Positions 19,990 to 32,945 of a DNA stretch of 64,000 nucleotides are shown here, in pieces. The DNA is from Phapecoctavirus DIJ07P2. The first letter of the stretch is position 1; each line of letters opens with the position of its first letter. A program made the translations under genes and the position numbers. The notes below the pieces were generated by a model. The model did not search any database. It was not told where the DNA came from and worked only from the letters and a program-made list of their open reading frames with translations. The stretch is taken from sequence record OZ035771.1; one strand, 5' to 3'.

Positions 19990-20045
19990 TTGACATTAAC
20001 GAATAATTTGTTAATATGTTACATAAAGCGGGAACTATTCCCGCT
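19990..20045 (+). promoter_or_regulatory. Promoter + 5' stem-loop cassette (TTGACA, TAATAT, AGCGGGAA..TTCCCGCT)
   Basis: Same architecture as other cassettes. Confidence 0.5.
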
Positions 20046-20062
20046 ATTTGTAAGGTGGTAGA

Positions 20063-20320: not shown

Positions 20321-20321
20321 T

Positions 20322-20879
20322 ATGGGCCGCGAATATGTGATCCAGTCTTGGGTAAAACATGAAGCAGATGATCCGCGCATCATTCCTGATTATCTTGTCG
20401 ATGAATCCACGGGCTATAGCGGGGAGCAAATAGGTAACAGATTAGCACGTAGTAACGGCAACGTAAAAGCGCGTTATGTGCGCCCTGGCTGGCTGGCAAA
20501 TGGTAACGCTGATTTATCCAGTGCGGAAGATGCGAGCGACGGCGCGAAAGATAATCCTTTGTACAAAGTTGATCCGGCTTTTCGTGTCCTGGATGAATAC
20601 CCCAGCAAGATAGCGGCGCTCGATCAGGCCCTGGAAAGTAAGCGCATCACCTGGACCGCTTACAACATGGCAAAAAACGTACTTGATGGTAAATTGATTC
20701 AAGCTGAAAGAAAATTAGCCAAAATTGCAGCCATAGCCCAGGAGGAAGACGAGGAGACAACGGAAGAGGAAGAGTACGAAGAGATCCCGCCGTTGTTGTG
20801 TGTTGATGCTTTTCCTGATTATCAGCCGACAGAGGAAGAAAAAAGGATCGCACTAGAAAACTTTGAAAATAGTCTTTGA
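20322..20879 (+). CDS. Hypothetical protein with acidic C-terminal tail (185 aa)
   Basis: ATG after AAAAGGTGG RBS; C-terminus EEDEETTEEEEYEE. Confidence 0.5.
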   Translation: MGREYVIQSWVKHEADDPRIIPDYLVDESTGYSGEQIGNRLARSNGNVKARYVRPGWLANGNADLSSAEDASDGAKDNPLYKVDPAFRVLDEYPSKIAALDQALESKRITWTAYNMAKNVLDGKLIQAERKLAKIAAIAQEEDEETTEEEEYEEIPPLLCVDAFPDYQPTEEEKRIALENFENSL

Positions 20880-20932
20880 CATATCGCCGCCACTGGCATA
20901 ATATTTACCACGTAGGGCGGCAATGGTGCCGC
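20876..20932 (+). promoter_or_regulatory. Promoter + 5' stem-loop cassette (TTGACA, TAATAT, GGCGGC-AATGGT-GCCGC)
   Basis: Near-identical to cassette at 19349. Confidence 0.55.
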
Positions 20933-20962
20933 TCATAGTGAAATTATGCAAGAGGCTTACAA

Positions 20963-21058
20963 TGATTAATAAAGGAAATAGCTTGACGGTTGGAACGATT
21001 AACGCTATCATTCTCGCCGTTCCATTTTGGGTTGTAGTAGCGGCTATTATTTTCTAAA
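20963..21058 (+). CDS. Micro-ORF, hydrophobic peptide (31 aa), self-derived
   Basis: AAGAGG RBS 6 nt before ATG; MINKGNSLTVGTINAIILAVPFWVVVAAIIF. Confidence 0.4.
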
Positions 21059-21066
21059 AAATATTC

Positions 21067-21127
21067 TTGACAACGTTTTTTAATCTGATAAGATGTATCA
21101 CATAGGGCGGCGGAATACTTCCCCGCC
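21067..21127 (+). promoter_or_regulatory. Promoter + 5' stem-loop cassette (TTGACA, TGATAAGAT, GGGCGGCGGAA..TTCCCCGCC)
   Basis: Conserved block TAAGATGTATCACATAGGGCGG. Confidence 0.55.
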
Positions 21128-21148
21128 AAAACAAAAAAGGGTAACACA

Positions 21149-21511
21149 ATGAGCAAGCAAATCAATACTATCATGTTTAATCTGGTATCTTTCCGCGATG
21201 ATATGAAAAATTTACCACGTGAAACGGTTGATATTCATGTTTCAGCTTATCGCGCCCTTATTGACATGTTACCGCTAAAACGTGATCAACATGCCGCTAA
21301 TATGATGCTTAATGCTATGCTTAAAAAGATGATTCAAACGGATCTCACCCTGGCATATGAGTATCAAGGGCGCTTATATGCAAATTACAACAGAGCGGTA
21401 CCTGGTCTGGGAAGTACTGAAGAGTTGCACGGCTTAAACCTGGATCAAAACACTTGGGATAGTATGCGCCGCGTTATGGTATGGGCCGAAAGCGGTAAAA
21501 TTTACGAATAA
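21149..21511 (+). CDS. Small hypothetical protein (120 aa)
   Basis: ORF after cassette. Confidence 0.5.
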   Translation: MSKQINTIMFNLVSFRDDMKNLPRETVDIHVSAYRALIDMLPLKRDQHAANMMLNAMLKKMIQTDLTLAYEYQGRLYANYNRAVPGLGSTEELHGLNLDQNTWDSMRRVMVWAESGKIYE

Positions 21512-21517
21512 AAACGG

Positions 21518-21575
21518 TTGACACTGTTTTTTATTCTGGTATAGTTTATCACGTAGGGCGGCAATGGTGCCGCCA
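21518..21575 (+). promoter_or_regulatory. Promoter + 5' stem-loop cassette (TTGACA, TATAGT, GGCGGC-AATGGT-GCCGCC)
   Basis: Same architecture. Confidence 0.5.
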
Positions 21576-21594
21576 ACAATAAAAGGTTAACATC

Positions 21595-21774
21595 ATGACC
21601 ATCATTGCAAAAACTGAGATTATAGGTTTAGATTCGATCCTCCTGGCTTATGAGGAAACTTTAAAAATGTATGTAGTGACCTATGGTGATTATGTGCGTG
21701 AATACGAATACATTGATCTTGCTTTCGAATGTTACATTCGCCAGGTCAATAAAGCCTATAACGATTATCGTTAA
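21595..21774 (+). CDS. Small hypothetical protein (59 aa), self-derived
   Basis: ATG after AAAAGG RBS; MTIIAKTEIIGLDSILLAYEETLKMYVVTYGDYVREYEYIDLAFECYIRQVNKAYNDYR. Confidence 0.45.
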   Translation: MTIIAKTEIIGLDSILLAYEETLKMYVVTYGDYVREYEYIDLAFECYIRQVNKAYNDYR

Positions 21775-21793
21775 AAGTTTTAGTCTTATACTA

Positions 21794-21846
21794 TTGACAA
21801 TGAGTGATAGTATAAGCATAATAACTTTTATCGGGAATACTTCCCA
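21794..21846 (+). promoter_or_regulatory. Promoter + imperfect 5' stem-loop cassette (TTGACA, CATAAT)
   Basis: Hairpin CGGGAA-TAC-TTCCC(A) degenerate. Confidence 0.45.
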
Positions 21847-21870
21847 CTAACCAAAAAAGAGAGTAATATC

Positions 21871-22236
21871 ATGGCTATTAATATCAATGTTTCCTCTTAT
21901 GCTACCCTGGCTGACACGGCTAAAATTGAATTATCCAGCATTGAGGCGGTGCATATTAGCGCCCGTCGTTGGTTTCAACAGTCCTACGGTAACACATATT
22001 TTTCTTTAATGGTTGACGTTGAGATCGGCGGTAAACTGATCGAGGTGGTTAACGTTCCGTTTCAATATGGTTATGGTGATCATTTTGATACCGTCGCCCT
22101 GGAAGAATTTAGCAAGGTTATTAATATGGAAGGTAAAGAGTTTTCACGCGGCGCGTATCTTTCCCGTTTTTGCCGTGATAATGGGATCACTGTATACAGT
22201 CATGCGAGCGATGTTAAACGTAAAAAAGATTTATAA
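21871..22236 (+). CDS. Small hypothetical protein (121 aa)
   Basis: ORF after cassette; N-terminus MAINI shared with 22744 ORF. Confidence 0.5.
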   Translation: MAININVSSYATLADTAKIELSSIEAVHISARRWFQQSYGNTYFSLMVDVEIGGKLIEVVNVPFQYGYGDHFDTVALEEFSKVINMEGKEFSRGAYLSRFCRDNGITVYSHASDVKRKKDL

Positions 22237-22243
22237 AAAGCAT

Positions 22244-22302
22244 TGACAGCACGAATAAAAAGAGTAAACTGTATTACATAGAGAGCGGGAACACTTCCCG
22301 CC
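22244..22302 (+). promoter_or_regulatory. Promoter + 5' stem-loop cassette (TTGACA, TAAACT, GCGGGAA..TTCCCGCC)
   Basis: Conserved block TAAACTGTATTACATAG. Confidence 0.5.
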
Positions 22303-22326
22303 TCACTGAAAAAAGAGATTAACATC

Positions 22327-22566
22327 ATGGCTAAATCAAAAATGTTCTTAGGTCACAAAAATAAAACTCATTGGAATGTAAGCCTTTGGATTAATAACGA
22401 TGAATCGTTATATCGGTTGGCGAAAGAATTTATCGCCGCTAATACTAATCGTAATGATGCTGCCCGTGATATGATGTTATTCCTGGAACAAACTGGACAA
22501 GATAAAACTCCAGACGGTTTCAAGTATAGCACTACAGCGATCCGCGCCGCGATGGTTGGAATGTAA
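22327..22566 (+). CDS. Small hypothetical protein (79 aa)
   Basis: ORF after cassette. Confidence 0.5.
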   Translation: MAKSKMFLGHKNKTHWNVSLWINNDESLYRLAKEFIAANTNRNDAARDMMLFLEQTGQDKTPDGFKYSTTAIRAAMVGM

Positions 22567-22661
22567 AGGAGATATAAAAATGAAACATCGTTCTACCTAT
22601 CTAACAAAACGTTTTAGCTTAGATCATAAATTGGGCTATTACGGAAGAAATAGAAAATAAT

Positions 22662-22721
22662 TTGACAACGTTTAAAATTAGTGTAAGATGTATCACATAG
22701 GGCGGGAAGTGGTTTCCCGCC
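22662..22721 (+). promoter_or_regulatory. Promoter + 5' stem-loop cassette (TTGACA, TAAGAT, GGGCGGGAA..TTCCCGCC)
   Basis: Same architecture. Confidence 0.55.
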
Positions 22722-22743
22722 AACAACAGAGAGATTAAAGATT

Positions 22744-22971
22744 ATGGCTATCAATATTGTTCGCGTATCCGGCACCGTTGGCACTTCCCAAGTTATTGCA
22801 GTTGTAACAAACAAAAAGATTAATGATGTATGTGAAAGCTTGAATAAGTGGGCTATTGTTAATTTTGGGGAATATGCAAGCGTCGAGTACATCGAATCCT
22901 ACCAGGTGCCAACCATCAGCCTAACCGATCTCAACGTTGATCGCTTGTTGTGCCTGGATGAATTAATCTGA
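22744..22971 (+). CDS. Small hypothetical protein (75 aa)
   Basis: ORF after cassette. Confidence 0.5.
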   Translation: MAINIVRVSGTVGTSQVIAVVTNKKINDVCESLNKWAIVNFGEYASVEYIESYQVPTISLTDLNVDRLLCLDELI

Positions 22972-22982
22972 AAAAAGATTGT

Positions 22983-23037
22983 TGACACCGGAAAGAAAAA
23001 GAGTAGAATATATTACATAGGGCGGCAATGGTGCCGC
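22983..23037 (+). promoter_or_regulatory. Promoter + 5' stem-loop cassette (TTGACA, TAGAAT, GGCGGC-AATGGT-GCCGC)
   Basis: Same architecture. Confidence 0.55.
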
Positions 23038-23062
23038 TCACAACAGAAGAGAGATTATCACG

Positions 23063-23278
23063 ATGGCTAATATCCGCACTTTACTGAAAAATGCAAGTCA
23101 AGTTTTATTTTCAGATGATGAGTATTTCAATAAAGACATTACAGGCGTGAAAAATTTAAAAGACGTGAAGGATGTTATCGGTATTCGTGGATCTTTACGT
23201 AAAGGTGACTACTATGGTAACAAGGTGCAATATAAACTGTCAAAGGATTACAATTTTACTTTGACAATTATTTCATAA
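23063..23278 (+). CDS. Small hypothetical protein (71 aa)
   Basis: ORF after cassette. Confidence 0.5.
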   Translation: MANIRTLLKNASQVLFSDDEYFNKDITGVKNLKDVKDVIGIRGSLRKGDYYGNKVQYKLSKDYNFTLTIIS

Positions 23279-23283
23279 AACCG

Positions 23284-23345
23284 CTTGCAATACTGCAAAA
23301 ATAAAGTAAACTGTATTCATCAAGGCGGTGGAATAGCCAACCGCC
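23284..23345 (+). promoter_or_regulatory. Promoter + 5' stem-loop cassette (CTTGCA, TAAACT, GGCGG..CCGCC)
   Basis: Weaker -35; hairpin retained. Confidence 0.45.
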
Positions 23346-23369
23346 TAACAAAGAGAAGAGGAAAACATC

Positions 23370-23537
23370 ATGATCACTTTCGCTACCCGTGAAGCCGCTC
23401 GCAACGTTGCACGTAAAGTTAACGCCGCCAACCTGGGCGCTACGCTTAAAGCTCCGGTAAAAGATGAATCAGGCAAATGGATCTTCCCTGGTCTGCGTCA
23501 TGCTGACAAGTTAGGTACTTTAAGCCTTAAAAAATAA
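23370..23537 (+). CDS. Small basic protein (55 aa), self-derived
   Basis: GAGAAGAGG RBS; MITFATREAARNVARKVNAANLGATLKAPVKDESGKWIFPGLRHADKLGTLSLKK. Confidence 0.45.
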   Translation: MITFATREAARNVARKVNAANLGATLKAPVKDESGKWIFPGLRHADKLGTLSLKK

Positions 23538-23540
23538 TCG

Positions 23541-23580
23541 TTGACTTTTCGTTATAGCGCCTTACAATGGGCGCTATAGA
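23541..23580 (+). promoter_or_regulatory. Promoter variant (TTGACT, TTACAAT) with hairpin AGCGCC..GGCGCT overlapping the -10
   Basis: Differs from canonical cassette in that the stem-loop spans the -10 element. Confidence 0.4.
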
Positions 23581-23612
23581 GAAGAGAAACCACTACTAAC
23601 AAGGAAACCATT

Positions 23613-23834
23613 ATGATCACTTTCGCTATTGTCGCCGTTGTTGCTGGTCAAGTTTACGTAAATGAGACATTTACTACAGAAGACAAGGCAGCAGGAGATA
23701 TAACCGCCGTTTACAATGAGTGCAAGGCAGTAGAAAGGATGTTAGCGCCTTGTATGCTAATGAGTGAACGCCAGGACGGAATAACAGTATTTACTAACAT
23801 TGGAACAGGGTACCAAATGGTAGTAACAAAATAA
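23613..23834 (+). CDS. Small membrane-anchored protein (73 aa)
   Basis: N-terminal hydrophobic MITFAIVAVVAGQVYV. Confidence 0.5.
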   Translation: MITFAIVAVVAGQVYVNETFTTEDKAAGDITAVYNECKAVERMLAPCMLMSERQDGITVFTNIGTGYQMVVTK

Positions 23835-23837
23835 AGC

Positions 23838-23895
23838 TTGACACCGATTTAATTTTTAGTAAACTGTTACACGTAGGGCGGGAATAGTTCCCGCT
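23838..23895 (+). promoter_or_regulatory. Promoter + 5' stem-loop cassette (TTGACA, TAAACT, GGGCGGGAA..TTCCCGC)
   Basis: Same architecture. Confidence 0.55.
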
Positions 23896-23913
23896 CAAAA
23901 AGAGAGAAAGATC

Positions 23914-24267
23914 ATGAAAGCACAAAATGCAATTAAAGAGTACATCCTTGCCGCTATCGGTTTTAATGATTACGGTATTACAACAGAAAAAGAGAAGATC
24001 GCGGAATTGATGCGCCGTTTTAATTCCGAGTACTGGTACCCTGATAACCAATCACGTTTTAATTATAGTATTGTTAAAGCACTTGCATCATGGTTACAAG
24101 GTTTGCCATCAGATATTAATATCGCTTTCGAATATTGGGAAGTGGATCGCTTGTTAACATCCTGGGGATACATTAAAGAGAATAGCAGCGATGATAAAAT
24201 CCAACGAGAAAGGGAAAATTATTGGCTTTATATTGCAGGCGTGATCCTTGCTTGCTCTTATGAATGA
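23914..24267 (+). CDS. Small hypothetical protein (117 aa)
   Basis: ORF after cassette. Confidence 0.5.
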   Translation: MKAQNAIKEYILAAIGFNDYGITTEKEKIAELMRRFNSEYWYPDNQSRFNYSIVKALASWLQGLPSDINIAFEYWEVDRLLTSWGYIKENSSDDKIQRERENYWLYIAGVILACSYE

Positions 24268-24273
24268 TAAACC

Positions 24274-24328
24274 TTGACAATTTTACAAAACAGTTTAAAT
24301 TAACAATATAGCGGCAATGGTGCCGCTC
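24274..24328 (+). promoter_or_regulatory. Promoter + 5' stem-loop cassette (TTGACA, hairpin AGCGGC-AATGGT-GCCGCT)
   Basis: -10 less clear (TTTAAAT/TAACAAT). Confidence 0.45.
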
Positions 24329-24346
24329 ATATAAAGAGGAAACAAA

Positions 24347-24493
24347 ATGAATACATCTAATCGCGCAGAAAAAATTCAATCTTCCAAGATCCGCAAGGCC
24401 TGGAACGAGGAAGTGATCCGCAAAGGCGACAAGCGTAATAAAACAAAGCGCGGGAAGAGTGACAAATATAATTGGATGGATTTAGAGGATTAA
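24347..24493 (+). CDS. Small basic protein (48 aa), self-derived
   Basis: AAAGAGG RBS; MNTSNRAEKIQSSKIRKAWNEEVIRKGDKRNKTKRGKSDKYNWMDLED. Confidence 0.45.
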   Translation: MNTSNRAEKIQSSKIRKAWNEEVIRKGDKRNKTKRGKSDKYNWMDLED

Positions 24494-24500
24494 CATAACA

Positions 24501-24527
24501 AGGGCGCACCAAGCGCCCTTTCTTTTT
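24501..24527 (+). terminator. Intrinsic terminator (AGGGCGC-ACCAA-GCGCCCT + TTTCTTTTT)
   Basis: GC stem followed by T-tract directly after stop at 24493. Confidence 0.65.
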
Positions 24528-24548
24528 ATATGCAGAGGATAAACAAAG

Positions 24549-24734
24549 ATGACTTTAAACGAGCTTAAAACAGCCTACAACGCAACATTAAAAATAGCCG
24601 TGCGTTACCGTGATGCGTATGGTTTTATCGCGCAGGGCGTGATCCTGGGCTTTTCTGACGATGGTTTGATCTATGTTGATGCACATCACAACAAGGTTAA
24701 ACCTGAAAACGTCATTAATATAAAATATCTTTAA
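24549..24734 (+). CDS. Small hypothetical protein (61 aa)
   Basis: ORF after terminator, no cassette upstream. Confidence 0.4.
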   Translation: MTLNELKTAYNATLKIAVRYRDAYGFIAQGVILGFSDDGLIYVDAHHNKVKPENVINIKYL

Positions 24735-24740
24735 AAATGG

Positions 24741-24800
24741 TTGACACCATAACCGGACCTGTTAAACTGTATTACATCAGGCGGGGAATAGTTCCCCACC
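24741..24800 (+). promoter_or_regulatory. Promoter + 5' stem-loop cassette (TTGACA, TAAACT, GCGGGGAA..TTCCCCAC)
   Basis: Same architecture. Confidence 0.55.
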
Positions 24801-24819
24801 ATACAAAAAGGTAAATATT

Positions 24820-25026
24820 ATGATCACCGCAAAACAAGAAAAAATCATTATCGACGTTGCAGCCGTTGCCGCTATCGCTATTATTGGATCTTATTATGAT
24901 ACCCGTTTCCCGTCGGCTATGCATGAGGTCGCCGCCGTTGCATCAGTTGGCGTACTGTTTTACGTTGGTAAACGCTATTTATCACCAATGATTAACAAGC
25001 TGACACCGTGGAAAAATAAAGGTTGA
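24820..25026 (+). CDS. Small membrane protein (68 aa)
   Basis: Hydrophobic IIIDVAAVAAIAIIGSYY and VAAVASVGVLFYVG segments. Confidence 0.5.
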   Translation: MITAKQEKIIIDVAAVAAIAIIGSYYDTRFPSAMHEVAAVASVGVLFYVGKRYLSPMINKLTPWKNKG

Positions 25027-25078
25027 TCCTGTTTTACATTATGTTATAGTTATCGTGTAGGGCGGCAATGGTGCCGCG
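25023..25078 (+). promoter_or_regulatory. Promoter + 5' stem-loop cassette (TTGATC, TATAGT, GGCGGC-AATGGT-GCCGC)
   Basis: Same architecture; track ORF start at 25068 falls inside the hairpin. Confidence 0.5.
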
Positions 25079-25097
25079 CCCCTTTGAGGATGCAATC

Positions 25098-25382
25098 ATG
25101 AGTAAAGCTAACACCGTGCTAATGTTTTCCCTGATTAATGATCTCGCTTACTTGTCCAACATGACGCAGGAGGGTAACACATTAACGGCAACATTCACCA
25201 ATAAGCTTGACCGAGTGATCATCGTCTCACTGAAAACAGTTAGTAAAGGCTTTTACTTGTTAGCTTATCATTGTATCACTGATACCGATGAGACAAGCCA
25301 GGACTATAGCGCCCCTTTCCCTGAATCAATGGCACGGGAGATCATCGCCGCCGTTGTAAATGATGGTTTGTTTACTGCATAA
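25098..25382 (+). CDS. Small hypothetical protein (94 aa)
   Basis: Start moved to ATG (MSKANTVL) downstream of hairpin. Confidence 0.5.
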   Translation: MSKANTVLMFSLINDLAYLSNMTQEGNTLTATFTNKLDRVIIVSLKTVSKGFYLLAYHCITDTDETSQDYSAPFPESMAREIIAAVVNDGLFTA

Positions 25383-25400
25383 AATAATTTAGAAAAAGGC

Positions 25401-25460
25401 TTGCAATCATTTTGAGATAGTGTATATTTAATTCATAGGGCGGCGGGAATAGTTCCCAAA
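25401..25460 (+). promoter_or_regulatory. Promoter + imperfect 5' stem-loop cassette (TTGCAA, TATATT)
   Basis: Hairpin GGGCGGCGGGAATAGTTCCC degenerate. Confidence 0.4.
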
Positions 25461-25480
25461 GCAAACGAGAGGATTACACG

Positions 25481-25600
25481 ATGAGCAAGTACACAGTAGA
25501 ATACACGGTAGAGAATCCGGCAGTATCCGAAGGTAAAAAGATGACATTTACCATCAGTATAATCGCTTTCGTTGTCACTATCTTATCAATCATCTTATAA
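25481..25600 (+). CDS. Micro-ORF, single-pass membrane peptide (39 aa), self-derived
   Basis: GAGAGG RBS; MSKYTVEYTVENPAVSEGKKMTFTISIIAFVVTILSIIL. Confidence 0.4.
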   Translation: MSKYTVEYTVENPAVSEGKKMTFTISIIAFVVTILSIIL

Positions 25601-25610
25601 GGTGCACACC

Positions 25611-25772
25611 ATGAAAACAACAGATATTATCAAAGAGATCGCCCTTGCCGCTGGCGTTGAGATCGAGGAAGTGATCGCGCTCAATCTTACAGAAAACGAT
25701 CTGCGCAACTATGAAGCGGAAAGCGTGAAAGCAAGTGGCGCGGTCCTGGCATATAATCCGGCTAACAAATAG
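25611..25772 (+). CDS. Small hypothetical protein (53 aa)
   Basis: ATG (MKTTDIIKEI) after AAGGTG RBS. Confidence 0.45.
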   Translation: MKTTDIIKEIALAAGVEIEEVIALNLTENDLRNYEAESVKASGAVLAYNPANK

Positions 25773-25773
25773 T

Positions 25774-25830
25774 TTGACAAGCTGAATCAACCTGATAAGA
25801 TGTATCACATAGGGGCGACAAGCGCCCCGC
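25774..25830 (+). promoter_or_regulatory. Promoter + 5' stem-loop cassette (TTGACA, TGATAAGAT, GGGGCG-ACAA-GCGCCCC)
   Basis: Same architecture with different hairpin sequence. Confidence 0.55.
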
Positions 25831-25849
25831 CTAACAGAGAGATAGAATC

Positions 25850-26128
25850 ATGACCATCGCCAAATTATCCGCCGAAGAAATCGAACAAGTGCTAACTACT
25901 AACCTGGAACAATGGAAACGTGAGGCAGATATACAATCAGCACAATGGCTTAACGAGAAGTTAACACCGGATGATCTGAGTAAGATTATAGATCCTCAAT
26001 TCTACGAAGATATTCACGACACCGTTTTAAGCGTCGAGGATGTACTTGATAAGCATTATATTGCTACTGATTTGCAGGTTTACGGGCGTAAAAACTTTAT
26101 TACTATTCACGACATTTACAATAACTAA
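25850..26128 (+). CDS. Small hypothetical protein (92 aa)
   Basis: ORF after cassette. Confidence 0.5.
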   Translation: MTIAKLSAEEIEQVLTTNLEQWKREADIQSAQWLNEKLTPDDLSKIIDPQFYEDIHDTVLSVEDVLDKHYIATDLQVYGRKNFITIHDIYNN

Positions 26129-26136
26129 GGGATAAC

Positions 26137-26265
26137 ATGAATCCGAAAGATATGCAAGCATGGAAAGGGTACGACGATCTAAGCGCCTTGCGCAATAAGT
26201 CAAGCCGTAACCTTAGACGGTTAGAAGCAAAGAAAAAGAAAAAACAGTTTGACAAGTCCGCTTAA
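26137..26265 (+). CDS. Small basic protein (42 aa), self-derived
   Basis: MNPKDMQAWKGYDDLSALRNKSSRNLRRLEAKKKKKQFDKSA; 3' end overlaps next cassette -35. Confidence 0.35.
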   Translation: MNPKDMQAWKGYDDLSALRNKSSRNLRRLEAKKKKKQFDKSA

Positions 26266-26306
26266 TCTGGTAAAGTGTATCTCGTAGGGCGGCAATGATG
26301 CCGCTC
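26249..26306 (+). promoter_or_regulatory. Promoter + 5' stem-loop cassette (TTGACA, TAAAGT, GGCGGC-AATGAT-GCCGC)
   Basis: Same architecture. Confidence 0.55.
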
Positions 26307-26325
26307 ACAAGAAGAGAGAAAAATC

Positions 26326-26610
26326 ATGAAGATCACAAAAAGCCTAACTAATTATGCAGCACGTCGCGGATTATGCTTAACCGTTGAAAACTCAGGGAAA
26401 GAAGACTTTTTGTGTTTTTGGGAGCTTGAAAATGATTGCGAGTGGATGTTTTCTTATTCTATCTGCGAAGATCAAAACGGTTGTTTGTTAACCTGGCGCG
26501 GTAATATCTATTTACCGGAAGAAATTAAAGAAGAGTTACCAGGTACGATCATGACAGAGAGACAGCTTAAGGAAGTGATCAATTTTGTAGGGCAAAACAT
26601 TAAAAAATAA
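26326..26610 (+). CDS. Small hypothetical protein (94 aa)
   Basis: ORF after cassette. Confidence 0.5.
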   Translation: MKITKSLTNYAARRGLCLTVENSGKEDFLCFWELENDCEWMFSYSICEDQNGCLLTWRGNIYLPEEIKEELPGTIMTERQLKEVINFVGQNIKK

Positions 26611-26611
26611 T

Positions 26612-26674
26612 TTGACAGCACGCAAACAACGTAGTAAAGTTTACCACATAGGGCGGCGGAATGGTCCACCGCTC
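26612..26674 (+). promoter_or_regulatory. Promoter + 5' stem-loop cassette (TTGACA, TAAAGT, GGGCGGCGGAATGGTCCACCGCTC)
   Basis: Same architecture. Confidence 0.5.
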
Positions 26675-26695
26675 ACAACAGAAGAGAAACAAATC

Positions 26696-26866
26696 ATGAT
26701 CCCGACTATGTTTTATGTATCGCGCAAAGGTCACAATATTTTTTGGTCTGAAGATTTAAATGAAGCCATGACGTTTGCCCGTGATCGTGTTGCTATCGGT
26801 GGCGTTAACATCACCGTAACCGATGAAAATGGCATTGAATACTATAACGGCGACGATGAAGAGTAA
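26696..26866 (+). CDS. Small hypothetical protein (56 aa)
   Basis: Start moved to ATG (MIPTMFYVS) downstream of hairpin. Confidence 0.45.
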   Translation: MIPTMFYVSRKGHNIFWSEDLNEAMTFARDRVAIGGVNITVTDENGIEYYNGDDEE

Positions 26867-26931
26867 TTAATAAGGCGGGGAATACTTCCCGCCACGCAGT
26901 GAATTTTCCGTTTGGGAAGTAAAAAATAAAT

Positions 26932-26993
26932 CTTGACGATAATTTGTTATCTGATAGAATGTATTTCGTAGGGCGGGGCAATAAGGCAAGCCC
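26932..26993 (+). promoter_or_regulatory. Promoter + 5' stem-loop cassette (TTGACG, TAGAAT, GGGC..GCCC)
   Basis: Same architecture; a second hairpin (GCGGGGAATACTTCCCGCC) sits just upstream at 26875-26895. Confidence 0.5.
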
Positions 26994-27010
26994 ACAAAGA
27001 GGAAAATAAA

Positions 27011-27379
27011 ATGAGCAAATCAGCAATTAAAGCACTTGAAAAAGCACAAGAAGTGATCGCAACGTCAACCACTGGCGCAAAGGTTAATCTCGTTTGTTAT
27101 CTGACAGATGAAACTATCCGTAAAAATTGGCGTAATGCTGATTTACTGGCTTGCTTATTGATTAATAGTGTCGCTAATGCTTTCCAGTGTGAAACAGCCG
27201 AGAGCCTGGAGGAAAACTTGTTTGATAATATGGATCAAGCCATTGAAACCTATATACAATCAAACCTGGATAGCTGGAACAGTAAAACATGGCCCGACAA
27301 TTTACGCGATACAACTGATCAACTGATCCGCCTTGCCCTGATGGTTGAACGCGATAACGTTTACAACAGCACAAAGTAA
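27011..27379 (+). CDS. Small hypothetical protein (122 aa)
   Basis: ORF after cassette. Confidence 0.5.
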   Translation: MSKSAIKALEKAQEVIATSTTGAKVNLVCYLTDETIRKNWRNADLLACLLINSVANAFQCETAESLEENLFDNMDQAIETYIQSNLDSWNSKTWPDNLRDTTDQLIRLALMVERDNVYNSTK

Positions 27380-27388
27380 GATTATACA

Positions 27389-27410
27389 AGGGCGCACTAA
27401 GCGCCCTTTA
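27389..27410 (+). terminator. Putative terminator hairpin (AGGGCGC-ACTAA-GCGCCCT)
   Basis: GC hairpin after stop; weak T-tract. Confidence 0.4.
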
Positions 27411-27443
27411 ACGTAAAGAAATGTAAATAATGCGCTATCCCTA

Positions 27444-27470
27444 TTGACAGGGGATCGGCGTTATATTATA
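27444..27470 (+). promoter_or_regulatory. Sigma70-type promoter without stem-loop (TTGACA, TATATT)
   Basis: Last promoter of the array, precedes 27518 ORF. Confidence 0.45.
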
Positions 27471-27517
27471 TTTAACTTACTGGCAGCAAACAACGAAACG
27501 AAACAAAGGACAACATC

Positions 27518-27937
27518 ATGAACATTAAATCAAATAATCCAGCTTACTCCTTCGATAACGCTTTTTGTCACGGTAGCGCCGCCAAAGGCTTCGAAATCGA
27601 TGGTAAATTGGTTATCGTGAACGTTGACGGGGAAGAGGTTGCAGTGTATCCGGTAAACGATGTTAAAAGCCGTTTACAATGCCGCATGGATGTTACCGCA
27701 TATCAGCTTGATCCGGTCCGTGTAGTTGCCCTGGTATTAGAGGAAGAGATCAAAGCAATGCATCACAGTAATAAGTTTATTGGTGACGCGCAGGATAATA
27801 TGAACGTTTGCCGCCATAAAGTTAATGAAGCATTGAAAGAATGCGGTTTTAAGGATCTGATGATTAAACGTGATGAAAAATTCCGCTTTCGTAATGACCT
27901 GGCAAACCGGATCTACTCAATCTATGAAGCTTTATAA
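27518..27937 (+). CDS. Hypothetical protein (139 aa)
   Basis: Last ORF of the array, followed by strong terminator. Confidence 0.5.
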   Translation: MNIKSNNPAYSFDNAFCHGSAAKGFEIDGKLVIVNVDGEEVAVYPVNDVKSRLQCRMDVTAYQLDPVRVVALVLEEEIKAMHHSNKFIGDAQDNMNVCRHKVNEALKECGFKDLMIKRDEKFRFRNDLANRIYSIYEAL

Positions 27938-27952
27938 TCGACAACAAAACAA

Positions 27953-27979
27953 GGGGCGCACAAAGCGCCCTTTCTTTTT
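27953..27979 (+). terminator. Intrinsic terminator (GGGCGC-ACAAA-GCGCCC + TTTCTTTTT)
   Basis: GC stem plus T-tract after stop at 27937. Confidence 0.65.
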
Positions 27980-27989
27980 GCCCGAACAA

Positions 27990-28900
27990 TGTTGATAGCT
28001 TTCGCCTATGAAAAACCGACACAGAACAAAACTGAATAAATCGCGGTATCGAGCTAATCAACCAGCAAACGAATAACCATACCTCCCAGGGTTACAGGCT
28101 GTTAGAGAGCCATTTAGAGCGGTTAAAATCGATCAACAACCAACAACAAACCATCAAAAACACCCTTTTACCTCCTTTCTAGTGCAATGATAACCATTAT
28201 CATCTACCCATGATTATCTATGCAATATAAGCGCATAATTATAATGTTGATAATAGTTCGCAACAACTAACCAACAAACAACATAAAACAATAAGCAAAC
28301 TAATCATAATCAAAGGAATAATAGCAAGATGATTGATAACGACAAACAATCGAACCATGATGAATACTAAGCAAGATAACGATAACACGACAAAACAACC
28401 AACTAACGAACAATAACAAACGAAACCATTAAAATAATAACTATTAGCAAAATAGTGCCTGAATGAAATCATTACAAAACGAATCATTCACAGAGTCATC
28501 ATTAGCACGCTATGCCGGACACATAGCGAGCTAATAATAAGCCAACTACACCCCAACAATCATAACCATCGGTGACGGTTATTTCTTGTTACTGCGTAGC
28601 TTGCAATAATTGCAAGCGTAATGACGCTTACACTTATTGCGCTGGCTTATTATTAGCATTATATGTAATTACCAAGATCATAACATTAGCGCAATAACAA
28701 TAGTCATTGTAATAATTACATGAGTTATCACTATCGTTCAGTGTGATCATCATTAGCACAGTGAATAATTGCACGTAGCAACATGAGCGAATAGCGACAG
28801 GTTGCATAGTGTGCACATAGTGTATAAACATACAAGAAAATAAAGGCTAATCTTTTGGGGGCGAATACTATCGCGTAGCGATATGTTGAGCACCTTCTCT
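27990..28900. other. Non-coding region with strong A+C strand skew, GATAA-type hexamers and palindromes
   Basis: Plus strand dominated by A/C (e.g. CAACAACCAACAACAAACCATCAAAAACACC); palindromes TGATAACCATTATCA (28188-28202) and CTTGCAATAATTGCAAG (28600-28616); no convincing ORF. Confidence 0.5.
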
Positions 28901-28962
28901 TAAACGTAAATAAAATCAGAAAATTCTTGATTTATTTTAGTTTTTATGTTAATAAACGTTTA

Positions 28963-28980
28963 AATAATAATCATTCTCAT
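28963..28980. promoter_or_regulatory. Fur-box-like operator candidate (AATAATAATCATTCTCAT) followed by TATAAATA
   Basis: Shares ATCATTCTCAT core with 18694 site. Confidence 0.35.
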
Positions 28981-29140
28981 ATAAATAATAGTCTGCTTGT
29001 CATGAGCGGGATTAGTTGACAATGTTCCGTCATATGATGAAGTTGCCAAGCCATTGATAAATAAGTGTTTGTGTGATTTATAATCAGGTGGCCCACCTTG
29101 TCGCTATGTTGGCATGAGCCTTGCATAAGTCATTGAATAC

Positions 29141-29161
29141 GAATGATAATTATTCTCATTC
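29141..29161. promoter_or_regulatory. Fur-box-like palindromic operator candidate (GAATGATAATTATTCTCATTC)
   Basis: Near-palindrome; matches Fur consensus at most positions by eye. Confidence 0.4.
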
Positions 29162-29501
29162 GCATGATATTTGGGAATTGTCGCTGCGTGGACCTGACGG
29201 CCCGAAAATTCGCGTTAAGCACTTCTTACGTATACGCCATGATTTTTGCCATATGATATTGATTCTATTAGATATTCTTGCCATTATTGCCATGAAACAT
29301 GGTGTCCCGAAATAATCTCTCCCCGTAGATATTTTGGGTTACTTTTTATACAAGAGTGGGGTGTCAAAAATAATCAGTATATATGGGATAATTGATAGGA
29401 ATCCCCTATGATAATTCGATTGTAATTCCCTAAGATTGATCGTATGATGTTGGTGATTGATGATTGCCATGAAAGATGGCTAACGATGAGAGGAGATTGT
29501 C

Positions 29502-29876
29502 ATGCAAGAGAGTAAAAATGTTCCGTTGAGTAGTGCAACATTGCTTCGCTTCTATAAAGCATGGATTGCCAACTATCCTGCAATGAATCGCACAACGAGT
29601 GGCTTATGTGGTTGTCTGGTAGATTATGTAAATGATTTTGTTGGTGAGACAACTAGAGAAGAAGATAGAAGATGGCGGGATAGTTTGTTGGACCGTTTGA
29701 AATATGAAATGAGGAAACAATTTACATGTGCAGGGCTGGACTATAATCTTCCGTTCAATGCAGATTGCATGGATTACCTTTCAGAGTGTATAAACTTGGC
29801 GTGTCATACCAACACGTTACGTCTTCAGTGGGTGAAAGACAGAATTGAAGATGCAAATAATGCTTGCATTGAATAA
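29502..29876 (+). CDS. Hypothetical protein, paralog family member A (124 aa)
   Basis: GAGGAG RBS; shares GLCGCL, LPFN and RLQWVKDRI motifs with ORFs at 33354 and 34659. Confidence 0.55.
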   Translation: MQESKNVPLSSATLLRFYKAWIANYPAMNRTTSGLCGCLVDYVNDFVGETTREEDRRWRDSLLDRLKYEMRKQFTCAGLDYNLPFNADCMDYLSECINLACHTNTLRLQWVKDRIEDANNACIE

Positions 29877-32244: not shown

Positions 32245-32273
32245 GAGAATACAGCAATGGTTTAGGAGTGGTT

Positions 32274-32945
32274 ATGAAAAAGTTTGTTGTTTACAGTCGT
32301 CTTTCTAAACAGAAAAAAGGTGAGGCACAATATGGTATGGAGAGCCAAGAGAACGATATCCGTTACTTCTTAGACTCTGTGCCTGATGCTGAAGTTATTG
32401 GTCAATTTTCTGAATACTATTCGGGTAAGGGCGATTGGAAGCAACGTAAGGAACTGGTTAAAGCGGTTGAAATGTGTAAAGCTACCGGAGCAACTTTATT
32501 GGTAGCTAAAGTTGACCGCTTGGGTCGTAACAACGCATCCGTAGCAACTCTTCTAGAAATGATTGATGTTAAGATAGCCATCATGCCAGACGCAGATAAA
32601 ATGGTTATACAGCTTCTGTCTGTTCTGGCTGAACAAGAAGTTAGAGGTATTGCTGATCGTATTAAAAAGGGTCTTGCTGTAGCAAAAAGCAAAGGTGTTT
32701 TATTAGGCAGTGCTAATCCTAAAACTGCTGCTGCACGTAGAAAAGGAAAAATGGAATACAATTCTGTTAAAGCAGACGCTTTTGCAGAGACATTTCGTGA
32801 ACGCTTGGAGATCCTTAGAGATTTAAATACACCTTACAAAACTATTGCTGAAAAATTCAATAGTAAGAAAATAGCAACAGCACGTGGTGGTAAATGGGAT
32901 GCTAAAACTGTTTCTCGTTTGTGTGCCAGACTTAACATTAAATAG
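32274..32945 (+). CDS. Serine recombinase (resolvase/invertase family)
   Basis: YSRLS N-terminal motif, LVAKVDRLGRN, AEQEVRGIADRIKKGLAVAKSKG match resolvase catalytic-domain motifs as recalled; C-terminal HTH-like region. Confidence 0.65.
   Translation: MKKFVVYSRLSKQKKGEAQYGMESQENDIRYFLDSVPDAEVIGQFSEYYSGKGDWKQRKELVKAVEMCKATGATLLVAKVDRLGRNNASVATLLEMIDVKIAIMPDADKMVIQLLSVLAEQEVRGIADRIKKGLAVAKSKGVLLGSANPKTAAARRKGKMEYNSVKADAFAETFRERLEILRDLNTPYKTIAEKFNSKKIATARGGKWDAKTVSRLCARLNIK

What the first reader, a model, noticed from the sequence alone, without database searches (positions are those of the whole stretch)
27990..28900. About 0.9 kb non-coding stretch with extreme A+C strand skew, GATAA hexamers and palindromes
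The plus strand is almost devoid of G and T over long runs and contains clustered GATAA/TGATAA motifs, perfect palindromes TGATAACCATTATCA and CTTGCAATAATTGCAAG, and TCATCATTAGCAC repeats. No credible ORF or RBS is present. Candidate roles include a replication origin, a packaging or pause site, a protein-titration array, or a G-poor non-coding RNA.
Basis: seen in the sequence. Interest (0 to 1): 0.55.

Follow-up and report, generated by a model that had tools for sequence, protein, structure and literature searches.

The report
Non-coding region beside phage genome end
This gene-free stretch lies just inside the right end of a large E. coli virus's linear chromosome and carries a binding-site sequence for the host iron regulator Fur, a lopsided A-rich/G-poor spacer and a conserved cluster of DNA hairpins, a layout that recalls the unexplained 'injection-stop' region of phage T5 and most likely serves replication or packaging of the chromosome end.

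Summary
The window is a phAPEC8-like myovirus (Phapecoctavirus). The finding lies in a 1.56-kb gene-less gap (27938-29501) and ends at the left edge of the 329-bp direct terminal repeat (DTR, 28889-29217). That edge was mapped from the phi92 annotation and from a relative's record that carries the segment at both ends.

The A+C skew is real and is the window maximum (z about 5.4), but it covers only about 28000-28550. Across genera only G-poverty plus A-richness, length (210-390 nt) and position are kept, not sequence. There is no conserved ORF, Rfam match, DnaA box or conserved promoter.

The GATAA/TGATAA palindrome is a Fur box. A matrix built from the phage's boxes picks out the three Fur-controlled ent-fep promoter regions of E. 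coli. It also scores phage T5's annotated injection-stop repeats at 21-27 bits.

Positions 28498-28662 form a multi-hairpin element with strong covariation. It folds 14-24 kcal/mol better on the bottom strand in 15 of 15 variants.

Best reading (about 0.4): a cis-acting DNA region for genome-end replication or processing. Rivals are a packaging signal, an ncRNA, Fur titration and a pause site. It is a new variant of a known kind; interest is moderate.

The parts
27951..27983 (+). Intrinsic terminator T1 that ends the upstream rightward operon (last gene 27518-27937).
   Evidence: 9-bp stem with 6 GC pairs plus a T run. Conserved in all clades, with changes inside the loop and stem. Annotated as a terminator in phAPEC8 and PATM.
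27990..28085 (.). Conserved block I. It holds the dyad GATAGC...GCCTAT (27994-28010) and the invariant 22-mer ATCGCGGTATCGAGCTAATCAA (28040-28061, which contains an inverted ATTAGC).
   Evidence: 76-80% identity to phi92-like phages and 68% to Klebsiella phages. Searches agree. No promoter or ORF was found.
28186..28204 (.). Fur box A (AATGATAACCATTATCATC).
   Evidence: 15/19 match to the Fur consensus. 21.8 bits with the phage-box matrix, which also picks out the E. coli ent-fep Fur operators. Positionally conserved in every clade.
28219..28263 (.). Dyad TATGCA-N-GCATA (28219-28237), the invariant GCATAAT, and box B (28245-28263). Box B is a weak Fur-type site here but strong in phi92-like phages.
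   Evidence: Invariant columns in alignment A1. Box B scores 16.6-20.6 bits in phi92 and the metagenomic clades. No conserved sigma-70 promoter on either strand.
28263..28497 (.). A-rich, G-poor (here also T-poor) tract, the core of the reported A+C skew. It is T/G-rich and C-poor on the bottom strand. A shorter A+C run lies at 28120-28175.
   Evidence: Composition is A 53%, C 19%, G 10.6%, T 17%. The homologous position has 5% G in phi92-like and Klebsiella phages. A non-homologous G-poor tract sits before the DTR of rV5-like LL12. The tract is structure-free as RNA (-10.9 kcal/mol, z 0.15). No period-3 or 10.5-nt order. TAAC/AAC words are over-represented.
28498..28662 (-). Multi-hairpin element: H1 28508-28528; closing stem S2 28530-28544 with 28643-28657; H3 28562-28582; H4 CTTGCAATAATTGCAAG 28600-28616; an inner stem or alternative hairpin 28617-28642.
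   Evidence: RNAalifold finds 48 pairs, 13 with double changes. On 15 distinct sequences 97.6% of pairs are kept against 89.6% in shuffles (0/500), and 20-43% when the partner is slid. MFE z is -6.2 on the plus strand and -8.3 on the minus strand as RNA, and -7.1 and -9.4 as DNA. The minus strand is better in 15/15 variants.
28443..28851 (.). ATTAGC-type short repeats: plus orientation at 28443, 28501, 28652, 28685 and 28752; inverted at 28053, 28530 and 28846. They include the 13-mer TCATCATTAGCAC at 28496 and 28747.
   Evidence: 8 copies in the interval against 0.5-0.9 expected, reached by 0/500 shuffles. Extra copies occur in KP13-26 and the metagenomic clades.
28666..28856 (.). Hypervariable zone and mosaic break-point.
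   Evidence: Identity to other Phapecoctavirus members falls from 90-95% left of about 28690 to 47-66% to the right of it. Indels are visible in A1.
28857..28888 (.). Cut-site module: GGGGGC, the GC hairpin TATCGC-GTA-GCGATA (28869-28883), and the invariant TGTTG^A. The DTR starts at 28889.
   Evidence: TGTTGAGC is invariant. The hairpin covaries between clades. The whole unit is tandemly repeated 2-3 times in tuntematon, muut, KP13-26, KP2025, L020 and L028. The boundary is fixed by the phi92 DTR annotation and by the end of the Mt1B1_P17 record.
28889..29217 (.). Direct terminal repeat (329 bp), just outside the finding. It holds Fur boxes C (28963-28981) and D (29142-29160), an IHF consensus site (29047-29059), TTGACA at 29015, and the right cut motif GTTA^AGC.
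   Evidence: Published DTRs of 342-343 bp in relatives (phi92 record).

Best explanation
SHOWN.
- The interval is the right-hand subterminal untranslated region of a phi92/phAPEC8-type linear chromosome.
- It runs from the terminator of the last gene to the left edge of the 329-bp direct terminal repeat.
- It is a composite of conserved DNA modules: a Fur box (or boxes), an A-rich/G-poor tract, a roughly 165-nt multi-hairpin element, ATTAGC repeats and the cut-site module.

INFERRED MECHANISM.
- It acts in cis at the DNA level on the bottom strand.
- DNA synthesis sometimes enters the chromosome from the terminal repeat. This could be recombination- or repeat-primed replication of the linear or concatemeric genome, or regeneration of the repeat at a concatemer junction.
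- In that situation the bottom strand is the displaced, lagging-template strand.
- The hairpin cluster would then serve as a single-strand initiation or assembly signal for helicase, primase or a structure-specific enzyme.
- The adjacent C-poor, T/G-rich bottom-strand tract (GTT/GTTA-rich) would be a structure-free landing and priming zone.
- The Fur boxes recruit, or soak up, host Fur on the flanks.

Confidence is about 0.9 that this is the DTR-adjacent non-coding cis region, and about 0.35-0.4 for the replication or end-processing mechanism.
For: Location:
- The phi92 DTR annotation aligns to 28889-29217.
- The Mt1B1_P17 record ends at 28889 and starts at 29216.
- The literature reports DTRs for this subfamily.

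Non-coding status.

Hairpin element:
- It has real covariation.
- In all 15 distinct variants it is 14-24 kcal/mol more stable on the minus strand, with 5-10 G.U(T) pairs against 0-3 on the plus strand.
- The same asymmetry appears with DNA parameters.
- Two hairpins have 8-9-bp stems with 3-nt loops, which is typical of DNA palindromes.

Against a transcript: no conserved promoter on either strand and no terminator, and no Rfam family.

Tract:
- G-poverty with A-richness is kept across genera although the sequence is not.
- A comparable tract recurs before the DTR of rV5-like LL12.
- The tract is structure-free and enriched in AAC/TAAC, which is bottom-strand GTT/GTTA.

Linkage to the end: the element always lies 170-530 nt from the DTR edge in every locus found. 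There is no mirror element right of the DTR.
Against: - No experiment and no transcript or replication data are available.
- The primase specificity of these phages is unknown.
- The strand asymmetry of the hairpins and the G-poverty of the tract could both be footprints of a C-to-T mutational bias on the bottom strand rather than of selection. That would still imply the bottom strand is often single-stranded.
- Within the genus the tract is no better conserved (94-95%) than the flanking genes.
- ATTAGC repeats and dyads are equally what a double-strand packaging (pac) site would look like.
- The cumulative GC skew does not switch at this position.
Confidence: 0.4

Rival explanations
1. Double-strand packaging or concatemer-junction signal. 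Small terminase and accessory proteins bind the ATTAGC repeats and dyads next to the cut site GTTG^AGC. The hairpins would act as in the T7 junction, where a hairpin intermediate accompanies duplication of the terminal repeat.
For: - The interval sits immediately next to the invariant cut motif, which is shared by both DTR edges (GTTG^AGC and GTTA^AGC).
- ATTAGC occurs 8 times against about 0.7 expected.
- The cut-site module is tandemly duplicated in several relatives.
- A conserved IHF consensus lies in the DTR.
- T7 precedent: an untranslated spacer with short repeats and phiOR before the terminal repeat, and a hairpin seen during T7 infection (PMC4281155, citing Chung and Hinkle 1990).
Against: - Protein binding to duplex DNA does not predict the consistent bottom-strand wobble asymmetry.
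- It does not predict compensatory changes in four separate stems.
- The T7 spacer is not compositionally skewed.
- The element is 225-390 bp from the cut site and separated from it by a hypervariable zone.
Confidence: 0.25
2. A non-coding RNA gene. The candidate is a structured RNA of about 165 nt, better on the minus strand, with or without the unstructured tract as a leader or trailer.
For: - Covariation supports the structure.
- MFE z-scores are strong, -6 to -12.
- The G.U asymmetry points to one strand.
- The tract would be an unstructured RNA with C/G > 1.
Against: - No Rfam match even at E = 5.
- No positionally conserved promoter on either strand, and no intrinsic terminator flanking the block.
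- 3-nt loops on long perfect stems.
- No wobble intermediates at all in H1 or S2.
- The (ARN)n and AANAANAA Hfq-type motifs are not enriched beyond what the composition gives.
Confidence: 0.12
3. The point of the dyad motifs is Fur control or Fur titration. Either iron-dependent repression of phage promoters, or sequestration of host Fur by many replicating copies of the boxes, which would de-repress iron uptake for the phage. This concerns the boxes, not the tract or the hairpins.
For: - The boxes match the Fur consensus at 14-16 of 19 positions and are confined to two non-coding regions.
- The matrix built from the phage boxes ranks the fepB|entC, fepD|entS and fepA|fes regions as its top 4 hits in 26 kb of E. 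coli.
- There are 7 strong boxes in the window, 9 per virion when the second DTR copy is counted.
- They are conserved in all clades and in the DTR of rV5-like LL12.
- They are present as arrays in the T5-like iss regions.
- They mostly do not overlap recognisable promoters, which fits titration or an architectural role better than classical repression.
Against: - Only one strong box lies inside the reported interval.
- Binding has not been tested.
- A conserved phage protein with Fur-like specificity is not excluded.
- Whether Fur titration would benefit the phage is speculative.
Confidence: 0.25
4. A DNA-entry pause or stop signal like the T5 iss. The repeat- and palindrome-rich untranslated zone would halt or time genome injection.
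For: - It shares the T5 'direct repeat C / palindromes E-I' motif, which lies under the annotated iss.
- The overall make-up is the same: an untranslated, repeat- and palindrome-rich zone at a terminal-repeat boundary (Davison 2020, bioRxiv 10.1101/866236).
- The window's other Fur-box array (18608-18716) lies about 10.5 kb from the right end, compared with 9.6 kb for T5.
Against: - If the right end entered first, no gene would lie distal to boxes A and B, so a stop here would expose nothing to express.
- The T5-type DnaA-box pairs and DRD repeats are absent.
- Two-step injection is unknown in this family.
- The iss mechanism in T5 is itself unproven.
Confidence: 0.08
5. A transcription insulator. 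A C>G, structure-free rut-like tract followed by pause hairpins would give Rho-dependent back-up termination, keeping read-through from the right-end operon out of the terminal repeat and the early genes.
For: - C/G is above 1 in nearly all 78-nt windows, with a median of 1.6-3.9.
- The RNA would be unstructured.
- Stable hairpins follow the tract.
- The tract lies downstream of terminator T1 and upstream of the conserved rightward DTR promoter.
Against: - C is not enriched (14-19%, the genome average), and YC dinucleotides are not over-represented.
- The hairpins are optimised for the opposite strand.
- It does not explain the Fur boxes or the repeats.
Confidence: 0.08
6. The skewed tract is a largely neutral spacer. 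Its composition would be a mutational footprint (C-to-T on a frequently single-stranded bottom strand), and only the flanking modules would be functional.
For: - The tract sequence cannot be aligned between genera while its neighbours can.
- Composition in phi92-like and Klebsiella phages fits a simple G-to-A conversion.
- There is no internal order apart from the TAAC words.
- Within-genus identity equals that of the flanking genes.
- The same bias would explain the A.C mismatches on the top strand of the hairpins.
Against: - Length and position are kept in five or more clades, and an analogue exists in rV5-like LL12.
- Phapecoctavirus is in addition T-poor, which G-to-A change does not explain.
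- Divergence in the tract (about 5%) is below that at third codon positions (10.7%).
Confidence: 0.15
7. A host-type (DnaA-dependent) replication origin.
For: An AT-rich asymmetric tract sits next to dyads and repeats, which resembles the layout of the lambda origin (ori) (recalled from memory). There is a local reversal of GC and AT skew.
Against: - No TTATCCACA or TTWTNCACA boxes in the gap, and relaxed DnaA-box matches are below expectation.
- Cumulative GC skew follows gene orientation and does not switch here.
- The window holds a more origin-like iteron and AT-rich region at 18386-18600.
Confidence: 0.04

Closest known systems
Phage T5 'Repeat Region 3' / injection stop signal (iss), AY587007 9194-10409
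   Same: - Both are untranslated zones of 1.2-1.6 kb that begin after a terminator and straddle or abut a terminal-repeat boundary.
[quoted passage not shown]
- They share the same 19-21-bp dyad: T5 DRC/palE-I AAATGAGAATCATTATCATTT matches this phage's box consensus at 20/21, and VEc33 matches at 21/21.
- Both have a strongly strand-asymmetric tract of about 200 bp near the boundary (T5 9900-10100, C-poor).
   Different: - In T5 the zone lies inside a 10-kb repeat at its inner edge. Here it lies outside a 329-bp repeat.
- The T5 DnaA-box pairs, DRD repeats and site-specific nick have no counterpart here.
- Sequence similarity is confined to the Fur-type boxes.
- The covarying hairpin element was not found in T5.
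- The function of the T5 region is inferred from its position only.
E. coli Fur box ('iron box', GATAATGATAATCATTATC; 7-1-7 or hexamer-array models)
   Same: - The boxes match the consensus at 14-16 of 19 positions and have the 7-1-7 dyad architecture.
- In the reciprocal test, the matrix built from the phage boxes finds the ent-fep Fur operators as its top 4 hits in 26 kb.
- Box D extends as an array of 5-6 hexamers.
   Different: - The boxes are mostly not placed over a -35/-10 pair.
- They occur in arrays at a genome terminus.
- Fur binding has not been demonstrated.
T7 concatemer-junction region (phiOR, short repeats SRR, terminal repeat; hairpin intermediate)
   Same: Both have an untranslated spacer between the last gene and the terminal repeat, containing short repeats and an inverted repeat. 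A DNA hairpin has been implicated in duplication of the repeat (Chung, Nardone and Hinkle 1990, recalled from memory).
   Different: The T7 spacer is 239 bp, is not skewed (21% G), has no Fur-type boxes and depends on the T7 RNA polymerase promoter phiOR. There is no sequence similarity.
Single-strand initiation signals / primosome assembly sites (phiX174 n' site, G4 origin of complementary-strand synthesis, plasmid ssi) - recalled from memory
   Same: These are strand-specific clusters of stable hairpins of about 100-170 nt that function only on the displaced or lagging-template strand. They need no promoter or ORF.
   Different: No sequence similarity was tested or is known. Recognition by PriA, DnaG or a phage primase is untested. 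Known examples lie in ssDNA phages and plasmids, not at the ends of large dsDNA phages.

Membership tests
Direct-terminal-repeat (DTR) genome end, subterminal region | The same segment is present at both ends of the virion DNA, with fixed boundaries. | tested here: met
   The phi92 annotated right DTR aligns to 28889-29217. The Mt1B1_P17 record (95-97% identical) starts at window 29216 and ends at 28889. Other records break at the same two points. Not measured on this phage's own virions.
Fur box | A 19-bp dyad matching GATAATGATAATCATTATC (7-1-7). | tested here: met
   Box A matches 15/19, box C 14/19 and box D 15/19. 6 of the window's 16 hits at >=14/19 fall in the gap, against 0.39 expected.
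Fur box | Equivalence to validated Fur operators. | tested here: met
   The matrix built from the phage boxes ranks fepB|entC (22.0 and 16.1 bits), fepD|entS (18.2) and fepA|fes (15.9) as its top four hits in 26 kb of K-12. These regions make up 2.8% of the sequence.
Fur box | The box overlaps the promoter it represses. | tested here: not met
   No promoter at box A. Boxes C and D flank the DTR promoter (about 34 nt upstream of the -35 hexamer and about +95) rather than overlapping it.
Fur box | Fur-Fe2+ binds the site. | not testable with these tools
   Needs a gel shift (EMSA), ChIP or a FURTA assay.
T5-type injection stop region (Repeat Region 3) | An untranslated repeat- and palindrome-rich cluster at a terminal-repeat boundary with DRC-type dyads. 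| tested here: met
T5-type injection stop region (Repeat Region 3) | Paired DnaA boxes in IRD'/IRC', and DRD repeats. | tested here: not met
   No consensus DnaA boxes in the gap. No similarity to T5 beyond the dyads.
T5-type injection stop region (Repeat Region 3) | Two-step DNA transfer that stops at the site. | not testable with these tools
   Needs interrupted-infection experiments.
Structured non-coding RNA gene | A conserved secondary structure supported by covariation. | tested here: met
Structured non-coding RNA gene | Its own promoter and terminator, or a known RNA family. | tested here: not met
   No positionally conserved promoter on either strand and no terminator. No Rfam hit.
DnaA-dependent replication origin | A cluster of DnaA boxes next to an AT-rich unwinding element. 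| tested here: not met
   0 strict or consensus DnaA boxes in the gap. 10 relaxed matches against 20.5 expected.
Rho-dependent terminator (rut plus pause) | A C-rich, G-poor, YC-rich unstructured RNA followed by pause sites. | tested here: inconclusive
   C/G is above 1 and the RNA would be unstructured. However, C is not enriched and YC is not over-represented.
Single-strand initiation signal (ssi/PAS) | A strand-specific hairpin cluster that works on the displaced strand. | tested here: inconclusive
   The strand specificity of the fold is met (15/15). Priming or primosome assembly cannot be tested here.
Protein-coding gene | A conserved ORF, or a protein-family match. | tested here: not met

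The most novel reading that the evidence does not exclude
Arrays of high-quality Fur boxes are a shared, previously unrecognised hallmark of the untranslated terminal regions of unrelated virulent enterobacterial phages with terminal repeats. These include the annotated injection-stop signal of T5-like phages, the DTR of rV5-like phages, and the DTR plus subterminal region of phi92/phAPEC8-like phages. If so, the host iron regulator Fur (or iron status) takes part in genome-end biology: DNA entry or pausing, early takeover, or de-repression of iron uptake by titration. Next to the boxes sits a new strand-specific DNA hairpin element that primes or organises end replication.
Probability: 0.3. 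Interest if true: 0.8.

Novelty: new variant of a known kind. Interest (0 to 1): 0.55.

Why it matters
How linear phage genomes with terminal repeats replicate, regenerate and package their ends is understood in detail only for T7. The cis-acting 'injection stop' of T5 has been unexplained for decades.

This region gives three concrete, mutable handles in a therapeutically popular phage group (phAPEC8, phi92 and rV5 relatives):
- an exact cut-site motif (GTTR^AGC) at both repeat edges;
- a covarying, strand-specific hairpin element;
- Fur boxes that are shared with the T5 iss repeats.

The Fur link is directly testable with fur mutants, iron chelation, gel shift (EMSA), ChIP or a FURTA assay. 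It could connect iron physiology to phage infection.

For annotation, it shows that the small ORFs called here by automatic pipelines are spurious. It also shows where genome records of this family should start.

Tried and rejected
- **Coding.** Six-frame ORFs in the window and in relatives are not conserved. The gap ORFs have no PHROG family. Flanking genes have no Pfam DNA-binding domain.
- **Known RNAs.** No tRNA or tmRNA. No Rfam hit at gathering thresholds, and only chance hits at E <= 5.
- **DnaA, IHF, Chi.** No DnaA boxes and no Chi. One IHF consensus site, in the DTR only.
- **Hfq sponge.** (ARN)n and AANAANAA are not above what the composition gives.
- **Bent DNA.** No 10-11-nt phasing of A.
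- **Rut site.** No YC excess.
- **Special conservation of the tract within the genus.** This was my first impression. I withdrew it, which showed the same 94-95% identity in flanking genes and a mosaic break at about 28690.
- **Promoters.** No conserved sigma-70-type promoter in the box A-B module or on the minus strand right of the hairpins. Only the rightward DTR promoter is conserved.
- **Mirror-image element right of the DTR.** None found.
- **T7 right spacer as a compositional analogue.** Not G-poor.
- **Collection scans.** Three hits (L021, L024, L030) were chance matches in unrelated GC-rich DNA.
- **Second non-coding region.** The GC-rich segment at 18715-18990 shows no significant fold on either strand.
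- **Not done.** No covariance model was built and no whole-genome scan was run for further copies of the hairpin element.
Full report
**What the window is.** The 2.1 kb around the finding are 96-98% identical to Escherichia phages phAPEC8, phAPEC8_ev052, Ro121c4YLVW and about 125 other records. The window is therefore a phAPEC8-like myovirus (Phapecoctavirus, Stephanstirmvirinae). In curated records the stretch between the homologues of window genes 27518-27937 and 29502-29876 carries no gene. Only automatic pipelines place tiny ORFs there.

**Checking the observation.**
- The A+C fraction peaks here for the whole 64 kb: 0.74 over 200 nt at 28261 against a mean of 0.507 (sd 0.043), 0.77 over 100 nt, and 0.677 over 400 nt. 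For 28001-28500 the GC skew is -0.279 and the AT skew +0.366.
- The skew stops at about 28550. The second half of the reported interval is balanced.
- G-poverty alone is equalled by minus-strand gene blocks elsewhere in the window. The exceptional feature is joint depletion of G and T.
- GATAA occurs 8 times against about 3 expected (3/500 shuffles). TGATAA occurs 5 times against about 1.1. The 13-mer TCATCATTAGCAC is present twice. The two 'palindromes' are inverted repeats with 3-nt centres.
- The 82-aa minus-strand ORF translates to hydrophobic, Cys-rich low-complexity sequence. It is fragmented in phiWec186 and absent in phi92. No gap ORF matches a PHROG family.

**Where it lies: the genome end.**
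- In phi92 the homologous stretch sits just before the annotated 343-bp right terminal repeat.
- Read against the window and in a 14-genome alignment, the two phi92 repeat edges correspond to window 28889 and 29217.
- The record of Mt1B1_P17, a close relative, starts at window 29216 and ends exactly at 28889, so it carries this segment at both ends. Other records break at the same two points.
- Publications report 342-bp DTRs for BME3 and DTRs for the subfamily in general.
- Both edges are invariant and share a motif, GTTG^AGC on the left and GTTA^AGC on the right.
- The finding is therefore the right-hand subterminal untranslated region. It ends at the left edge of the DTR.

**Anatomy from comparison.** The alignment of phAPEC8-like, phi92-like and Klebsiella-phage gaps, plus IMG/VR and metagenome loci found with the invariant hairpin as a pattern, shows a fixed order of modules:
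- terminator T1;
- conserved block I (27990-28085);
- Fur-type box A, a TATGCA/GCATA dyad, and box B;
- an A-rich, G-poor tract;
- a hairpin block;
- a hypervariable zone;
- a GGGGGC-plus-hairpin-plus-TGTTGA cut-site module, tandemly repeated in several relatives;
- the DTR.

**The skewed tract.**
- It is 10.6% G, 53% A and 17% T here. It is 5% G, 41% A and 36% T in phi92-like phages, and 5-6% G in the Klebsiella phages. Lengths are 210-390 nt.
- Its sequence cannot be aligned between genera, while its neighbours can.
- My first impression of exceptional within-genus conservation was wrong. Its 94-95% identity equals that of the upstream genes. A mosaic break at about 28690 separates a 90-95% left part from a 47-66% right part.
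- rV5-like LL12 has a PhageTerm-mapped 459-bp DTR in a 2.5-kb gene-less gap. It has a non-homologous G-poor tract 300-500 nt before that DTR.
- T5 has a C-poor tract just before the inner edge of its repeat. T7 has no skewed tract.
- The tract has no period-3 or 10.5-nt order and no excess of Hfq-type or YC motifs.
- It would be structure-free as RNA.
- It shows only an excess of AAC/TAAC words.

**The GATAA motifs are Fur boxes.**
- The palindrome at 28186 and two sites in the DTR match the E. coli Fur consensus at 14-15 of 19 positions. A further cluster lies at 18608-18716, where the best site matches 16/19. Six of the window's 16 hits at >=14/19 fall in the gap, against 0.39 expected.
- A symmetric matrix was built only from the seven phage boxes and scanned over 26 kb of E. 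coli K-12. Its top four hits fall in the fepB|entC (two hits), fepD|entS and fepA|fes intergenic regions, which make up 2.8% of the sequence. These are the classical Fur-controlled divergent promoters (established knowledge).
- In the window the seven boxes score 20-27 bits and the next best site scores 10.6.
- The boxes are positionally conserved in every clade. LL12 has three in its DTR.
- The same box is phage T5's 'direct repeat C copies 1-4 / palindromes E-I', next to the 7.9% nick. It scores 21-27 bits there and matches this phage's consensus at 20-21 of 21 positions.
- The array matches 520 phage records. In T5 record AY543070 the hit lies under the feature 'injection stop signal (iss)'.
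- Davison (bioRxiv 10.1101/866236) describes that T5 zone as a conserved 1.2-kb untranslated repeat and palindrome cluster that straddles the repeat end.
- I found no paper linking it to Fur.
- Similarity between this terminus and T5 is limited to these boxes.
- Only one strong box lies inside the reported interval.

**The hairpin element.**
- Positions 28498-28662 fold into a hairpin (H1) followed by a 15-bp closing stem (S2) that encloses three or four further helices.
- RNAalifold on 9 sequences finds 48 pairs, 13 of them with compensatory double changes.
- On 15 distinct sequences, 97.6% of pairs are kept against 89.6 +/- 0.7% in shuffles (0/500). When the 3' partners are slid, only 20-43% are kept. 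Every change in H1 and S2 is fully compensated.
- The fold is far better than shuffles on both strands, but always better on the minus strand. For RNA the energies are -76.4 kcal/mol (z -8.3) against -56.5 (z -6.2). With DNA parameters they are -45.4 (z -9.4) against -36.9 (z -7.1).
- In all 15 variants the minus strand is 14-24 kcal/mol more stable and uses 5-10 G.U pairs against 0-3.
- No Rfam family matches.
- The only positionally conserved promoter in the whole gap is the rightward one inside the DTR.
- There is no mirror-image element right of the DTR.

**Interpretation.**
- What is shown: this is a non-coding, modular, conserved region next to the DTR. It holds a Fur-box sequence, a compositionally constrained tract and a structure-forming element.
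- What is inferred: it works as DNA, on the bottom strand. Three points support this:
  - the structure is optimised for one strand;
  - no promoter or terminator brackets it;
  - two helices are near-perfect palindromes with 3-nt loops.
- The bottom strand is the one displaced, or used as lagging-strand template, when synthesis moves inward from the right terminal repeat.
- I therefore favour a single-strand initiation or assembly signal, with an adjacent structure-free, GTT-rich landing zone. It would be used in end-primed replication or in regeneration of the repeat.
- A caveat applies. A C-to-T bias on a frequently single-stranded bottom strand would by itself produce both the G-poor top strand and the A.C mismatches. 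That still points to bottom-strand exposure, but not necessarily to selection.
- A double-strand packaging signal is the main rival. It is supported by proximity to the cut site, the repeats, an IHF site in the DTR and the T7 precedent.
- An ncRNA, Fur control or titration, a T5-like entry pause, a Rho-dependent insulator and a neutral spacer remain possible at lower weight.
- A DnaA-type origin is not supported.

**Verdict.** The interval is one part of a larger terminal control region. It is a new variant of a known kind, namely the subterminal untranslated regions of terminal-repeat phages such as T5 Repeat Region 3 or the T7 junction. Two features are new to my knowledge and to the searched literature: the Fur-box identity shared with the T5 iss repeats, and the covarying bottom-strand hairpin element.

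Noticed in passing
window 18168-19650: A second large non-coding region. It holds four Fur-type dyads spaced exactly 29 bp apart (18608, 18637, 18666, 18695; 20-27 bits). They are preceded by a C-poor AT-rich zone with a 72-nt direct repeat and AAAATTTAAAGTTTA-type iterons (18386-18600). This array gives the strongest match to the T5 iss repeats.
   Followed up: partly
window 18695-18940: The GC-rich segment after that array is conserved at 68-85% DNA identity in 351 phage records. These span Stephanstirmvirinae, rV5-like phages, Cronobacter CR3, Proteus Mydo, Pectobacterium CB7 and Raoultella Ro1, and the segment is mostly unannotated. It has no significant fold on either strand. It may be a small conserved gene (ORF 18736-18948, plus strand, 70 aa) or a cis element.
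   Followed up: partly
window 18608-18716 relative to 29217: The 18.6-kb Fur-box array lies about 10.5 kb from the virion right end. All genes between it and the end (19349-27937) read toward the end. This resembles the T5 first-step-transfer segment, whose iss lies about 9.6 kb from the end. It raises the untested idea of staged DNA entry in this family.
   Followed up: no
window 28884-28891 and 29210-29222: Both DTR edges share the motif GTTR^AGC(A/C)C. The left-edge unit (GGGGGC, GC hairpin, TGTTGAGC) is tandemly repeated 2-3 times in tuntematon, muut, KP13-26, KP2025, L020 and L028.
   Followed up: partly
window about 28690: A mosaic break-point. Other Phapecoctavirus members (phiWec186/188, PsgM04F) are 90-95% identical to the left of it and only 47-66% to the right. 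The right part includes the variable zone, the DTR and the first left-end gene, 29502-29876.
   Followed up: yes
window 29015-29050 and 29047-29059: A rightward sigma-70-type promoter inside the DTR (TTGACA-17-TAGACT in phi92-like and metagenomic clades) is positionally conserved. Its -10 element is degenerate in the window's own clade. A consensus IHF site sits in an invariant block next to it.
   Followed up: partly
window 32268-32945 (+): A 225-aa ORF with a serine-recombinase (Resolvase, PF00239, E = 5e-18) domain lies about 3 kb inside the left end. phAPEC8 annotates only a 99-aa protein at the corresponding place.
   Followed up: no
L031 (LL12, MH491969) 2467-2925 and 1950-2150: The rV5-like phage LL12 has three Fur-type boxes inside its 459-bp DTR, the first one 10 nt from the physical end. 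A G-poor tract lies 300-500 nt upstream.
   Followed up: partly
L036 (T5, AY587007) 9468-9637 and 9900-10100: The T5 annotated DRC copies and palindromes E-I score as Fur boxes (up to 26.9 bits). A C-poor, purine-rich tract of about 200 bp precedes the LTR end at 10139.
   Followed up: partly
database records matching window 27400-29500: Records labelled Campylobacter phage (B15, A150, C3), Pseudomonas phage PsgM04F and Acinetobacter phage ABPW7 are 78-96% identical to this coliphage region. The host labels are probably wrong, or the isolates came from contaminating enterobacteria.
   Followed up: no
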